This document shows, piece after piece, positions 48,001-57,000 of a stretch of 64,000 bases of DNA. Each line of letters opens with the position of its first letter. Positions within the stretch are counted from its first letter, which is position 1. The stretch covers positions 4,402,001 through 4,466,000 of the forward strand of contig OZ281498.1 of assembly GCA_965637545.1 (NCBI GenBank). Reading direction: 5' to 3'. The position numbers are program-made. This stretch comes from Phallusia mammillata (Eukaryota).

Positions 48001-51000
48001 GTTTGAGACATCTTGCACCAATAAACAGGAATCGTCACTTTGGATTGTGCGCCATATCAGCGTGAAACGTGGGGATTTTTGCAAGACAATGATGGATTGC
48101 ATTTTCTCATAAAAAATACATTCCTAGCCAAAGCATATTCGTAAAAAATCACACAATTTATGTGTTTTTCCGTATACCTGCTGTATTAATTTGGGCACAA
48201 AATGGCGTCCACGGGGCTCTACCGCTAGACCTACCATACGTACCTCTTTGGAGGACATTTCCTCCTTTCTAACGAAAAACAAGTTGGCCTACAAGGACAA
48301 TAAAAAATACCCAAATGTCATCGTTTTGAATTTTCTGTATTTACTAAATACGAAATTATTGTGTCTTTAACATCGGCCAAAGAGTGCGAGTTGTGGTCAT
48401 TGTTGATAGAAATTCACAATTTATAGTAAGTTAAACTTCATCCAAATTGGACTATAATAATTGACTGCGTGAAATTCGTGAAATATAGTGTGCCTTTATT
48501 TTCTTTGGGCACGAAAGTAAGTATTTAGGCTATATTCTTTGCCGGGAATGTGCCCTCCTTTTTGGTTGTGAAAATATGGTAGGCCTATCTACCGCGTAAC
48601 AATGGGTTGGACTACTTGTACTTGTGTTTTACATGTACTCTGGTTTGTGAGTATGATGTGCTCCGGAGTTGCAACAAGGACAAATAAAAGTGATTCACGC
48701 CTAATGATTGGTGATATCCTTCAGGTGTAAGAAGCATTCTTCGATAAAATCACCTTATTATTTGCCAGGCAGCAGTGGCGGAACCAGGAGGGGTAGAGGG
48801 CGATCCACCCACCCATAGGGTCGATTCCCGGGGTGGCAGGGGTGGCAGGGGTGGCAGCCTCCCCACTAAAAATCTCTGGTGTGGCAGCCCTTGTAAAATA
48901 GCTATGCTGCCACCCCAGAAATTGCCTGGCCGTATTTATATTCGTGCATTACAGATATGCGTTTCTTTCATTCACATGCCCTCTTTCGAATGGTCGGTAT
49001 ATTTTGAGCATGTGCAAAGCAAGCTATGTGAAATCCTTAACCCATTTTGCGCTACTCGTTTCAGTGATTTTCGCCAAGTTTGCTTCTCAAAAGCAAGCCT
49101 GAACAAGACTTTTGACATAACGATTGCAATTTTCACGTTTTTGTGTATTATGGATGTTAATTGGTAGTTGGGGATTATATTGTTACGTAAGTGTTCCGTT
49201 TTCATGTGTGGAAAATGGAATTGTAGTGACCACTCATGTACCTAAATTTCGTGTGGGAACTGCAATGCCGATTCCATAGTTTTGCAAAAAATTGAAACGT
49301 TTGCGTTATGTGACCTTTTAAACCACACTACTTCTCACGGATTATTATTAACGCTACCCAGCACGAGATACACTTTTGCTGCCAGTAACCAGTATGCTGC
49401 TGTGAGTACATTACCAACATATTGTGACATTACAACTCCACAACTAGACGGGCGGTTTGTGACGTGACTTTCATAGGTGTTACATCCAAGTTAACCAATA
49501 TTGCGTACATAGTAATGTGCATGTTTATTCCCTTCCAATAACCGCGAACACCATCTACAAACCCTAACGTGTACCCCAGTGTGTTTTGATCACGTAAGGA
49601 ACCACTTGAACAAATTTCGCCACCCCACAAAAGAAAATTTATGCTAAAAAACGACGCCTATGCACCCACCCCCTCTGAGCATGCTGGCGACATTGCAGAT
49701 TTAAAGAAGACTTAATTAAATCCGACTTCTAGTCGACGAATTTTTTGATATCTATGGGCCAACGTTTGGCCAGACGGAATATGGAAGAAAAACAAACCGG
49801 TTTGTTGACTGTTCGCAGTTGTACGTTGATGAGGCTATTGCAATAAAGCAGTTTTATACCGGTCACGTCTAAAACTGCGGGCCCACTTGGATCACTTGGC
49901 CCGCTTGGCCCAGCACTTTATGCAATTGAAAAACTGCGGGCCCACTATATCCAGTGCTTCATGCTTGTCGCGTCTCTTGCAAGTATAAAAACTGCGGGCC
50001 CACAATATCCATTGCTTGGCCCGTCTCTCGTAGGGAAAAACGGGCCAAGTGCTGGGCCAAGCGGGCCAAGTGAGCCAAGCGGGCCCGCAGTTTTAGACGT
50101 GACCCGTTTTATACCATTCGAGACAGGCAGACAGCTAACTGACTGGCAACCTACTTACTACTCATTTTCGCTTTGTAACCAATTACCAACGGTCATAGCT
50201 GCATGATAAGTTCTAGCTTTGTTTGTAAACCGTTTCGTTACTTCTTTGCAAAACGTGTTTATAATATATGCAATGTACGTGTTCGTTGTCAGCCTGTGTG
50301 TTTTAGGAGGTTTCAGGAATAAAACGTTGTTATGAATATGATTATGTGGTGTATCATTTATTGGAATGTGCTATCTAGTATTTGTTTGGCATACAACTGC
50401 AGTTTAAAACTACAAAAAGATGAATATTATTGCACCAATGATGCTGAACAAGCAAACTGCCTTGAATTCCTTGCCCACCAACAGCATTTAAAATCTAACA
50501 CAAAAGCGAATGGTATTTCATCATCCTCTTGGTTTATACTTTGCTACTTTGCTGTTTCAAGTGAATTTGCTACAAGCCAGTGCAGAATACAACTTCCTGC
50601 TGGACCTGTAAAATGTACTACAGATAATAGTACTCCCAGCTCAATTAAGAGAAACTGTACAACTGTTCTAATGTACTTTTCTAAGAATGCAATATTTGAA
50701 GTAAAGAATGATGTAGATAAAACTGTATATAGTAAGTTTTAAGTTTTTTTTGGATTTGCCTAATTTTAGTGCAATTAGTGTGTAGTGCATTACAATTTTT
50801 ATTTATCCTAGGCACATTTAGGACAGTTTTTCTTAAACTTTTTCTTCACTCCTACCTTCCTATGTATAAAAATAACAACAATAGCCGAGGCTAACCCACT
50901 GCCACAAGTAATGGTAGTCAATATTTAAAAACAACTGAAGTATGAGTGGGTTCCAGTAAAAAAAGACTGGTGGTAATAGGTATAAACAATATAGTTAAAT

Positions 51001-54000: not shown

Positions 54001-57000
54001 AAATTCATGACTAATTTTTTTCAGTCCATCTGCGTGGAGTGGTGTGACAATTGCACTATTGGTGGTTGGTTGTATTGGTATTGTCCTTGGCCTTTTGTTC
54101 TGCACACATAGAGTCAAGAAACAGCTTAAATACTTTAAACGCGCCAATGACATAGACGAAAGTGACAGTGTCATCAAACATTTGGTAAGTTTCTCAACAA
54201 CAAAATTTGGGCAGTTATGTATCCTTTACACAGGATTTGTTCAGGACAAAGTCATTTCATCTCCTGATGAGTTTGGAGTCCATAATATTTCAGAACCTTT
54301 AGATGAAGTGGAGTGACTTGCTGGGATAAAAATACGATCAGTGTTAAAATAGTTTACGCAACCAATCAGGTGCTCTTTTAAAAAGGTTTATGCCCTTTTC
54401 ATGTGTTTTACCTATCTGCAGTTCTTTTCAGTCCATTGGTTTCAAAACATTCTTGCCATTGAGTGATTGATTCTTTCCTCAATTCACAAGAGATGTCGTT
54501 TACCACATTTCCCCAGTACTAAGTATTACCTGTTCGTCAATGACGTCATAGCATTTCCTAGTACTGTGCTGCGCCAGGCGCTGGAAACTTGTATACCTAC
54601 AGTAATCCGTTTCGTGTGCTTAGGATTGTTTGTGTTTAAAGCGGTGCCACGATGTTTTTTGTCCTGATTTACCATGGTGTTTTTTATTACTTCGTACAAA
54701 AACTTTCATTTTTAACAAAAAGGGCACATGCAAACAAATAAGTACAAACGTTTTTCACTGAATTAAATTAGACACTGAAATTTCGTGTTTAAGTAAACAA
54801 GTCAAATTGCTCGGTTCACCTAGTTCAGTGGTTCCCAAACTTTTTTCTTTTAAGGCGCATTTTAGAAAAAACAAAAATTATTTGGCACACTTCGAACATT
54901 TGAATAAAAAATATATTGACAAAGGCACTAACTATGAGGTCATAAAGCCGCTATACAGGTCACTCTCATAGTTAAATAGCCTAGTTGAACATCTCAGAGA
55001 CGTGGAGCATGTTGGCCTAGTGGTCTAAGCACCTGGTACTACTACTCTACTTGATTGATTTTAATTTCAATATTTTTTGCGGCACACCTAATGACATCTC
55101 GCGGCACACTGGTGCATAGTTTGGGAACCACTGACCTACTTTGTGTGGTCCATTTATGTTAAATACGGCTGGTAACCAAACGATACAGAAATAGTTTTAC
55201 GTCTGTTGGGACAGAATTCAACGGCTAAAAAGGAGCGTAAAAAAGCTTTTTTTGTCAGTAAGGGACACAATAAAGTACCACTTTTGGTCAAGATTATATT
55301 TCAAAAAACTGGAAAACATAGGCCCTTTTGTTAAGCCGTTTAACTTCGACTGTGTTTTGTTATGCGTTTCAGTATAAACAAAGTTTCATTGATCCCTATT
55401 GTCCCTTGTTATACTACATTCGACTTATTGTGCATCCCCATAAAAGCACACAAGAACAACATAAACAACAACAGTTTTTTGATTTATCTTTTGCCTGTAG
55501 TCACGCGTCAGTTGCCCTCGACGGGTGATCTTGTGGGATGTGTTTTTCGCGATCGCCGATTTCTTCCATTAATTTCAGTCGGGAGATTCAGAGAAGGTGA
55601 CAGCTGATCAATTCTGAGGCAACAAACACAGATTTATGTCAAGCAGAAGTAACCAACCTTGACAATTTCAAGCGTGCGGTTTGCGATTAGGGTTTGGTCC
55701 CCCGAAAATCCCGGGATTTAAAGCTTAAAAGATTTTTTTGAATCCCCATCCTGGGATTATTTTTGTTGAAATACCGCGATTAGAACCTAGCTTATATTAC
55801 TTAATGGGGATGCGTGTTTGTTCAATTGAAGAAAACTTTATATTGTGGCAGCTGCGGCATACAGTTAAACTTCAAGTTGCGCGGTAAACTGAGGAGATAA
55901 AAAACGATGGTTGCATTGCGGTGTCTACTACCATTGCATTAAACCGCTTGTTGGTTCGTGCACCCGACCTGCGCTGTTCGTGTTCTATATGTTTCTACAT
56001 TCGCATATTTCCAACCTTAGGGTTTTCACGACCGTTTCCTTATCCTCTGTCACTGCAATGTAGTGTTTTTGTACTAAAGTAGCCTACCTACTATATTATG
56101 CTATGTTCCGTTTCTTTATGCGCAGAAAATAAATTTATACAATGCAAATTATACATTGGTTTGATACTTTATGAAGAAAACTATAATACAAGTCATTTTC
56201 TTACCTTTCGGAAAGTACTTGGATCTGCTGGACAAGTTGAAACACTGTATCATGCATGCGAGCTTGAGTTTTTAAATACGCACGGCATGAGCATCCTCCA
56301 GGTATTGAACTGAGCGTGGTAGCCTAAATATGTTTTGTGTAAAGTGTGTAAGCTAAGGAGCCGTAAAAAAAAGATTATTTCCTTGAAATCTAAAATAGCA
56401 CTCTTTGGTGGTTTCTAAGGTCTGGTGCGAGCCGCAAAATAAGTAGTTGGGAGCCGCGTTTGAGAATCACTGCGTTAGAGCCTCGTGGAGCCATTTGTGT
56501 CCATAACCAGCGGGTATAAGGAAAAACACATATATTGTCTGATTTGTACAAACATGGTGAGCTTTGACGCAAACTTTGTTCGGCAAATTGAATGAAACTT
56601 TTGGGTCCTAACAATTTGGCTGATCAAATATCGCATTAAAGCCCTCCAGTTTGACAATATAGCATGTGTTTTTCCCCAAACCCGCTGTGTTACTTTGGAC
56701 ACAAAATGGCTCTATGGCGTAACAATTGAATGGACAACTTGTGTTTTATATTGATTTTAGGGTAGTGTAAACTTACGGTTCCCGTTATCGAATTGCTTTT
56801 GCTATTGCCTGGGTATCGGGCAAACACTGTGACGTTGTAGGTGGTTTCAGGAACGAGCTCTTCAAGCCTACCACAATCACTGATTAAATATTGAGTTAAC
56901 GCAACCATGCACATGCTACTTACAATAAAAAGCTGTTTATGACGCCTTGCATTGTCAGTGGTACTGAACCAGGCGAGGAGTATGTTACAACATAACTAGA

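What the first reader, a model, noticed from the sequence alone, without database searches (positions are those of the whole stretch)
50332..54302. Tandem pair of orphan Cys-patterned type-I membrane proteins
Seen: two head-to-tail genes about 485 bp apart with the same four-exon layout (phases 1,2,0; TM exon 160 nt in both). They share an ectodomain pattern YNCS..C..C...(L/M)C(Y/F)F.V...F...QC.I.L.AGPV.C.......(R/S)NCT.VL, then (E/D)KC...(V/M)ADR..A...PFSN, a TM helix and a short tail, yet are otherwise highly diverged. I recognise no known domain. Inference: members of an undescribed, fast-evolving cell-surface receptor/ligand family. Divergent tandem surface proteins of this kind are candidates for immune or allorecognition roles, but nothing here shows function.
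Basis: partly seen in the sequence, partly recalled or inferred. Interest (0 to 1): 0.65.

Follow-up and report, generated by a model that had tools for sequence, protein, structure and literature searches.

The report
Two paralogous orphan single-pass membrane glycoprotein genes
Two neighbouring four-exon genes in an invertebrate-like animal genome encode related membrane proteins whose cysteine-rich outer domain matches no described family; this is a real but ordinary lineage-specific gene pair of unknown function.

Summary
Gene A (50332-52344) and gene B (52829-54316) lie head to tail, 484 nt apart. Each has four exons, GT..AG introns, phases 1, 2, 0, and a 160-nt transmembrane exon.

The exon-1 peptides are homologous: 32% identity, E 9e-14, and 0 of 1000 shuffles reach the score. 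All 7 mature cysteines align. Exon 2 shares KC...ADR...PFSN (0 of 1000 shuffles). The transmembrane exon and tail show little or no similarity. The third codon position is the least conserved, as expected for coding sequence under constraint.

There is no third copy in the window. Searched exon by exon, there is no Pfam match at E<=1 and no PDB sequence or profile match. One ESM Atlas lead (aspartyl protease) was weak and failed testing. AlphaFold gave pLDDT 41 and 38, so no fold is known.

"Fast-evolving" and "immune/allorecognition" have no support: the tails carry no tyrosine motif.

The parts
50332..50731 (+). Gene A exon 1 (400 nt, ends in phase 1). It encodes the signal peptide (50332-50391, 20 aa, inferred cleavage CLA|YNCS) and the main ectodomain with 7 cysteines.
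   Evidence: An in-frame stop lies 9 nt upstream of the ATG. The donor is gtaagt.
51800..51926 (+). Gene A exon 2 (127 nt). It encodes the membrane-proximal ectodomain with EKC...VADR...PFSNWT.
   Evidence: Acceptor cag, donor gtaaat.
51998..52157 (+). Gene A exon 3 (160 nt). The transmembrane helix peaks at 52035-52091 (Kyte-Doolittle 19-residue mean 2.73), followed by the basic stretch RKRMK.
52261..52344 (+). Gene A exon 4 (84 nt). It encodes an acidic, Ser/Thr-rich tail and ends at TGA 52342-52344.
52418..52448 (+). Two ATTAAA hexamers (at 52418 and 52443), 74 and 99 nt after gene A's stop. They are candidate polyadenylation signals.
   Evidence: This is a pattern match only.
52794..52801 (+). 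TATATAAG, 35 nt upstream of gene B's ATG. It is a candidate TATA box.
   Evidence: This is a pattern match only.
52829..53246 (+). Gene B exon 1 (418 nt, ends in phase 1). It encodes the signal peptide (52829-52897, 23 aa, inferred cleavage TRG|YNCS) and the main ectodomain with 7 cysteines.
53373..53502 (+). Gene B exon 2 (130 nt). It encodes DKC...MADR...PFSNSS.
54025..54184 (+). Gene B exon 3 (160 nt). The transmembrane helix peaks at 54044-54100 (Kyte-Doolittle 2.87), followed by the basic stretch HRVKKQLKYFKR.
54245..54316 (+). Gene B exon 4 (72 nt). It encodes an acidic tail and ends at TGA 54314-54316.

Best explanation
Two paralogous protein-coding genes from one old tandem duplication. 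Each encodes a type I single-pass membrane glycoprotein of roughly 250 residues.

Shown: both genes keep the same four-exon layout with intact frames. The ectodomain is homologous, with 8 aligned cysteines (7 in exon 1, 1 in exon 2) and three aligned N-glycan sequons (YNCS, NCT, PFSN[WS][TS]). The transmembrane exon and cytoplasmic tail have diverged.

Inferred topology:
- The N-terminal hydrophobic segment is a cleaved signal peptide, so the mature protein starts at the conserved YNCS.
- The ~155-residue ectodomain folds in the ER into a compact, probably beta-rich domain held by four disulfides and carrying N-glycans.
- A single helix with small-xxx-small motifs spans the membrane.
- A Cys-Thr pair at its cytoplasmic end (GCT / FCT) is a possible palmitoylation site.
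- The tail is basic next to the membrane, then acidic and Ser/Thr-rich, with no domain and no tyrosine signalling motif.

Proposed function (speculative): the conserved ectodomain binds the same class of extracellular partner in both proteins. The unrelated tails couple them to different trafficking or adaptor machinery, so the copies have subfunctionalised. The ectodomain belongs to no family in Pfam-A or the PDB, so the family is most likely restricted to one lineage.
For: - Gene structure: 6 of 6 introns are GT..AG, with phases 1, 2, 0 and a 160-nt exon 3 in both genes.
- Homology: exon 1 E 9e-14; 0 of 1000 shuffles reach the score for exon 1 and for exon 2.
- Conservation: 40 of 101 aligned mature exon-1 positions are identical, including 7 of 7 cysteines.
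- Coding signature: nucleotide identity by codon position is 0.57/0.60/0.44, so the third position is least conserved. Exon GC is 0.383 against 0.312 for introns, and G is enriched at codon position 1.
- Topology: Kyte-Doolittle 19-residue maxima are 1.63 and 1.95 at the N-termini and 2.73 and 2.87 in exon 3, followed by K/R-rich stretches.
- Sequons are listed.
- No known family: 0 Pfam families at E<=1 for the exon 1, 2 and 4 peptides of both genes and for A's exon 3; B's exon 3 gives only sub-cut-off transmembrane-like hits. The PDB gives nothing better than E 0.59.
- Copy number: only two copies in the window (profile HMM against 1669 six-frame pieces, next best E 0.32).
Against: - There is no transcript evidence for any junction, start or end.
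- AlphaFold2 models of the exon-1 ectodomain are poor (mean pLDDT 41.3 and 38.1), so a compact fold is not shown. The alignment had only 2 rows and lacked the exon-2 part.
- ESM Atlas recognition values (1280 and 2163) lie below the 2300 that 91 in 100 proteins of known families reach.
- Signal-peptide cleavage, glycosylation, disulfides, palmitoylation, surface location and ligand binding are all inferred from sequence rules, not from any predictor or experiment.
- B's intron 3 is in frame and free of stops, so its removal rests only on the paralogue's intron at the same position.
Confidence: 0.6

Rival explanations
1. The pair are divergent members of an already described extracellular domain family. 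The match was missed because searches ran exon by exon, with a two-sequence profile and no library of predicted structures of cellular proteins.
For: Sensitivity was limited. The domain is split over exons 1 and 2 and was never searched whole. The AlphaFold models were unusable. The Atlas gave one lead for B: aspartyl-protease N-terminal clusters, score 0.92, 118 of 256 shared features.
Against: Pfam-A local HMMs found nothing at E<=1 for a 113-139 residue piece holding 7 of the 8 cysteines. The PDB profile search's best hit was E 1.9. The Atlas lead is below the tool's own reliability marks (recognition 2163 < 2300; 118 < 170 shared features). A has no D[TS]G motif, and B has only DAG, where A reads PAG.
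Confidence: 0.2
2. They are endomembrane proteins (endosome, lysosome or Golgi sorting or resident proteins), not cell-surface receptors.
For: The distal tails are acidic and Ser/Thr-rich: A's exon 4 has 5 D/E and 8 S/T in 27 residues, and B's has 7 D/E in 23. From my own recall, acidic casein-kinase-type clusters direct endosome-TGN trafficking. There are no tyrosine signalling motifs.
Against: I found no canonical [DE]xxxL[LI], DxxLL or YxxPhi motif by eye in either tail (sequences). Pfam gives no match to any sorting-receptor lumenal domain.
Confidence: 0.2
3. They are a polymorphic recognition pair (immune, gamete or allorecognition).
For: Only the architecture points this way: tandem, diverged, glycosylated surface-type proteins of no known family.
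Against: No recognition-type domain was found. The tails have no ITAM- or ITIM-like tyrosine motif. The ectodomain, not the tail, is the conserved part, and all cysteines and three sequons are kept. That pattern suggests constraint, not diversification. There are only two copies in 64 kb. No polymorphism data exist.
Confidence: 0.05
4. One or both are not functional genes: they are mispredicted models or decaying copies.
For: There is no transcript support. The language-model recognition value for A is low. A uATG at 52810 overlaps B's start out of frame.
Against: Both copies keep four open exons, 6 of 6 canonical splice sites and identical phases. Codon positions 1 and 2 are more conserved than position 3. 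All structural cysteines are kept. This is unlikely after a duplication old enough to erase DNA similarity unless both copies stayed under selection.
Confidence: 0.1

Closest known systems
Small cysteine-rich type I receptors (TNFR-type CRDs, Ly6/uPAR or activin-receptor three-finger ectodomains); properties recalled, not fetched
   Same: A signal peptide, a short disulfide-rich glycosylated ectodomain, one transmembrane helix and a short tail.
   Different: No Pfam match of any kind at E<=1. The cysteine spacing (3, 14, 23, 51, 64, 75, 89 in mature A) and the absence of any CC pair do not fit the three-finger CC...CN signature or 6-Cys TNFR modules as I recall them.
Cation-dependent mannose-6-phosphate receptor (MRH domain); properties recalled
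   Same: Similar size and layout: an ectodomain of about 155-160 residues with several disulfides, one transmembrane helix and an acidic tail of about 50-70 residues.
   Different: No Pfam hit to any MRH or Man-6-P receptor model. The pair has 8 cysteines, not 6. I found no acidic-cluster dileucine motif at the C-terminus by eye.
Invertebrate allorecognition membrane proteins (Hydractinia Alr1/Alr2, Botryllus fester/uncle fester); recalled
   Same: Tandemly arranged type I membrane proteins in an invertebrate genome.
   Different: Those carry Ig-like or sushi domains and are highly polymorphic (from recall). Here no Ig or sushi match was found, and polymorphism could not be assessed.
Pepsin-like aspartyl protease N-terminal lobe (PF00026, PF14543), from the ESM Atlas lead
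   Same: B has a hydrophobic strand followed by D-A-G (IELDAGPV), which resembles the h-h-D-T/S-G active-site context.
   Different: A reads LPAGPV at that place, so it has no aspartate. Neither protein has a D[TS]G motif. The ectodomain is too short for two lobes. Pfam finds neither family at E<=1.

Membership tests
Type I single-pass membrane glycoprotein (generic class) | N-terminal hydrophobic signal sequence with small residues at -3/-1 | tested here: met
   Kyte-Doolittle 19-residue maxima are 1.63 (A) and 1.95 (B) at residues 2-3 onward. CLA|Y and TRG|Y precede the conserved YNCS. No dedicated signal-peptide predictor was available.
Type I single-pass membrane glycoprotein (generic class) | One internal transmembrane helix followed by a positively charged cytoplasmic flank | tested here: met
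   Kyte-Doolittle maxima are 2.73 and 2.87 in exon 3. The flanks hold 6 K/R in 20 residues (A) and 7 in 26 (B).
Type I single-pass membrane glycoprotein (generic class) | N-glycan sequons and paired cysteines on the lumenal side | tested here: met
   Each ectodomain has 4 sequons, 3 of them aligned between A and B. There are 8 aligned cysteines. Occupancy and disulfide pairing were not tested.
Pepsin-like aspartyl protease (A1) | Catalytic D[TS]G motifs and a match to PF00026 or PF14543 | tested here: not met
   No D[TS]G occurs in any exon peptide. Pfam gives 0 families at E<=1.
Ly6/uPAR or activin-receptor three-finger ectodomain | Pfam match and a C-terminal CC...CN cysteine signature (recalled) | tested here: not met
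   Pfam gives 0 families. There is no CC dipeptide in either ectodomain.
MRH / mannose-6-phosphate receptor domain | Match to the MRH or Man-6-P receptor profile | tested here: not met
   Pfam gives 0 families at E<=1. The fold could not be tested because model pLDDT was 41 and 38.
Ig-superfamily immune or allorecognition receptor | Ig-like domain; tyrosine-based (ITAM/ITIM) tail motif; high allelic polymorphism | tested here: not met
   No Ig-family Pfam hit was found. A's tail has 0 Tyr, and B's has 1, in KYFKR. Polymorphism cannot be tested with these tools.

The most novel reading that the evidence does not exclude
The 8-cysteine, triply glycosylated ectodomain is a new extracellular fold confined to one animal lineage. 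The two neighbouring genes would then be a matched recognition pair, with self/non-self, gamete or receptor/co-receptor roles, whose ectodomains interact with each other or with a shared polymorphic partner.
Probability: 0.06. Interest if true: 0.7.

Novelty: new member of a known kind. Interest (0 to 1): 0.3.

Why it matters
If the models are right, the pair adds an uncharacterised extracellular domain to the large pool of lineage-restricted animal surface proteins. That is useful for annotating this genome, and the domain is a candidate for structure determination. Nothing found so far points to a new mechanism, and such orphan single-pass glycoproteins are common in invertebrate genomes. 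It would matter more only if the family proved expanded, polymorphic or expressed in recognition tissues, none of which could be examined here.

Tried and rejected
- **Exon-by-exon Pfam.** Exons 1 and 2 gave 0 families at E<=1. For exons 3 and 4, only B's exon 3 gave hits, 4 in all, each below its curated cut-off and transmembrane-like (best LapA_dom, E 0.0075).
- **PDB sequence searches.** A's exon 1 gave 1 hit at E 0.59 and B's exon 1 gave 0. The exon-1 profile gave 1 hit at E 1.9 and the exon-2 profile gave 0.
- **ESM Atlas.** A gave no usable hit. B gave aspartyl-protease N-terminal clusters at 0.92; I rejected this as described under Closest known systems.
- **AlphaFold2 of the mature exon-1 parts**, with a 2-row alignment: pLDDT 41.3 and 38.1.
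- **Foldseek of the better model against the PDB.** 0 matches at E<=0.001 and a best probability of 0.14. This is meaningless, as expected for such a model. The other two fold-search jobs were not used.
- **Prokaryote genome scan.** 296 pattern matches, 0 confirmed.
- **Search for a third copy.** tblastn and a profile HMM found none.
- **Tail similarity read from the exon 3/4 boundary.** The first 9 residues of exon 4 reach the observed score in 142 of 5000 shuffles. This is a post hoc test and weak.
- **Rfam and tRNA scans** of the window found 0.
- **Bacterial promoter/terminator scan.** Counts were at shuffle level, and the scan does not apply to a eukaryote.
- **Literature.** One search found 0 papers. 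One search listed 2 papers, on cardiac fibrosis and on extracellular vesicles, seen only as listings and unrelated. I make no claim about what is or is not in print.
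Full report
**What is there**

The region 50332-54316 on the + strand holds two head-to-tail gene models with the same layout.

| Exon | Gene A | nt | Gene B | nt |
|---|---|---|---|---|
| 1 | 50332-50731 | 400 | 52829-53246 | 418 |
| 2 | 51800-51926 | 127 | 53373-53502 | 130 |
| 3 | 51998-52157 | 160 | 54025-54184 | 160 |
| 4 | 52261-52344 | 84 | 54245-54316 | 72 |

- All six introns begin with GT and end with AG. Five of the six donors read gtaagt.
- Intron phases are 1, 2, 0 in both genes.
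- An in-frame stop lies immediately upstream of each ATG, so the coding starts are well defined.
- The spacer between A's stop and B's ATG is 484 nt.
The real stop codon is 54314-54316.

**Is the similarity real?**

- Exon 1: the peptides align at 32% identity over 131 columns, BLASTP E 9e-14. The Smith-Waterman score is 141, against a shuffle mean of 30.6 and a maximum of 54; 0 of 1000 shuffles reach it.
- After removing the presumed signal peptides, 40 of 101 aligned positions are identical, including all 7 cysteines.
- Exon 2: the peptides share KC, ADR and PFSN. The score is 48 against a mean of 17.5, and 0 of 1000 shuffles reach it.
- Exon 3 (transmembrane): 17 of 1000 shuffles reach the score, which hydrophobic composition can explain.
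- Exon 4 (tail): 305 of 1000 shuffles reach the score, so it is not similar.
- In tblastn against the whole window, each exon-1 peptide finds only itself and the other gene (E 5.5e-11 and 8.6e-11; next best 0.26). Each exon-2 peptide has the other gene's exon 2 as its best non-self hit (E 0.011 and 0.009).
- A profile HMM of exon 1 against 1669 six-frame pieces finds the same two copies and nothing else (next best E 0.32).
- No DNA-level repeat links the two genes.

**Are they coding?**

- Over the aligned exon-1 codons, nucleotide identity is 0.57, 0.60 and 0.44 at codon positions 1, 2 and 3. This is the pattern of protein-level constraint.
- Of 39 identical non-M/W residues, 21 use the same codon, so synonymous sites are close to saturated. 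The duplication is therefore old.
- Exons are richer in G+C than introns (0.383 against 0.312). G is enriched at codon position 1 (0.25 and 0.28) relative to position 3 (0.12 and 0.18).
- There is no transcript evidence.

**Protein features**

These come from single-exon translations only.

- Both N-termini are hydrophobic (Kyte-Doolittle 1.63 and 1.95). They end in small residues (CLA| and TRG|) directly before the conserved YNCS, so the mature proteins would start at the conserved motif. This is an inference; no signal-peptide predictor was available.
- The ectodomain has 8 aligned cysteines. A has one extra cysteine in exon 2.
- It has three aligned N-glycan sequons (NCS, NCT, and N[WS][TS] after PFS), plus one private sequon in each protein. 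Two of the conserved sequons have a conserved cysteine as their middle residue.
- Exon 3 holds one strong hydrophobic helix (Kyte-Doolittle 2.73 and 2.87) with small-xxx-small spacing.
- A shared Cys-Thr sits at the inner end of that helix, followed by K/R-rich stretches.
- The distal tails are acidic and Ser/Thr-rich. A's tail has no tyrosine and B's has one, in KYFKR. There is therefore no ITAM- or ITIM-like motif, and I saw no canonical dileucine or YxxPhi motif.

**Comparison with known families, exon by exon**

- Pfam-A finds nothing at E<=1 for exons 1, 2 and 4 of either gene or for A's exon 3. B's exon 3 gives four hits below their cut-offs, all transmembrane-like.
- PDB sequence and profile searches give nothing better than E 0.59.
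- The ESM Atlas gives no usable hit for A. For B it gives aspartyl-protease N-terminal clusters at 0.92, with 118 shared features and recognition 2163. These values are below the tool's own marks for reliability. A has no aspartate at the matching place (PAG against B's DAG), neither protein has D[TS]G, and Pfam sees no Asp or TAXi_N match. I reject the lead.
- AlphaFold2 on the mature exon-1 parts gave mean pLDDT 41.3 and 38.1. Both models show scattered strands and no confident fold.
- Foldseek of the better model against the PDB gave 0 matches at E<=0.001.
- A scan of prokaryote genomes confirmed no relative: 296 pattern matches, 0 confirmed.

**What stayed unchecked**

- The large protein collections, the metagenome contigs and the viral contigs were closed, and no eukaryote genome or transcript collection was on hand. 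Family size, taxonomic range, orthologue conservation and expression are therefore unknown.
- No library of predicted structures of cellular proteins was available.
- The whole ectodomain (exons 1 plus 2) was never searched or folded as one piece.

**Context**

The window looks like a compact invertebrate-type animal genome. It has about 38% G+C, introns of 60-1068 nt, and roughly one gene per 6-8 kb. I do not take it for human. The neighbours are:

- an intronless NDUFB8 gene at 46294-46992 on the + strand (Pfam 2.6e-30; PDB 3.2e-24);
- two rhodopsin-type GPCR ORFs on the - strand;
- a large - strand gene with VWA, EGF/cEGF and multiple fn3 exons from about 63965 down to about 56690, convergent with gene B.

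Nothing in the neighbourhood suggests an immune or recognition cluster.

**Interpretation**

The best reading (confidence 0.6) is a pair of paralogous type I membrane glycoproteins. Their ectodomain is disulfide-rich and not represented in Pfam or the PDB. It has been kept under purifying selection since an old tandem duplication, while the transmembrane segment and cytoplasmic tail diverged. I propose that both bind the same class of extracellular partner and differ in intracellular coupling. That last step is speculative.

Rival readings:

| Reading | Confidence |
|---|---|
| Known family missed through limited sensitivity | 0.2 |
| Endomembrane rather than surface location | 0.2 |
| Non-functional or mispredicted models | 0.1 |

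Nothing supports the allorecognition idea. The pattern of constraint, with the ectodomain conserved and the tail free, points mildly the other way.

**Verdict**

The 'orphan' label holds only within the libraries I could search, and the functional speculation is unsupported. This is an ordinary lineage-specific membrane-protein pair, so interest is modest.

Noticed in passing
window 49851-50114: A foldback or MITE-like element about 220 nt upstream of gene A's ATG. It has 68-nt inverted arms, 91% complementary, with 128 nt between them. It contains three direct copies of a 31-nt unit (AAAACTGCGGGCCC...) spaced 58-59 nt apart.
   Followed up: no
window 46294-46992 (+): An intronless NDUFB8 (complex I ASHI subunit) gene with an N-terminal presequence-like start (Pfam 2.6e-30). 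Its best PDB chains score E about 1e-24, and a second group of NDUFB8 chains scores about 5e-13.
   Followed up: partly
window 46275-46276, 50305-50316, 52779-52792: All three + strand genes (NDUFB8, A and B) have pyrimidine-rich tracts ending in AG 15-50 nt upstream of the ATG. I read these by eye. They could be acceptors of 5'-UTR introns or of spliced-leader trans-splicing.
   Followed up: no
window 56690-63965 (-): A large multi-exon gene convergent with gene B. It has a VWA exon (E 1.2e-07), three EGF/cEGF exons (best E 9e-11) and a run of fn3-like exons; 6 pieces match fn3 at E 1.3e-06 to 0.0084. It looks like an extracellular-matrix-type protein.
   Followed up: partly
window 9642-10025 (-) and 13852-14664 (-): Two ORFs with rhodopsin-family 7TM matches (7tm_1 E 8.6e-06 and 7.3e-08).
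   Followed up: no
window 28851-29584 (+): A signal-peptide-like start, followed in a second frame by GFGGN(I/V) glycine-rich repeats and a Cys-rich EGF-like stretch. Pfam finds no match.
   Followed up: no
window 54185-54244: Gene B's intron 3 (60 nt) is in frame and has no stop (ORF 54011-54316). Retaining it would insert 20 residues into the tail instead of truncating the protein.
   Followed up: no
window 52810-52812: An out-of-frame upstream ATG lies 19 nt before gene B's start and opens a short ORF overlapping it. It would be excluded if transcription starts downstream of the TATATAAG at 52794.
   Followed up: no
window 51674-51709, 54821-54841 and 55118-55138: A palindrome in gene A's intron 1 and a 21-nt inverted pair (95% complementary, 276 nt apart) downstream of gene B share a GTTTGGGAAC core. 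They may be relics of one small transposon family.
   Followed up: no
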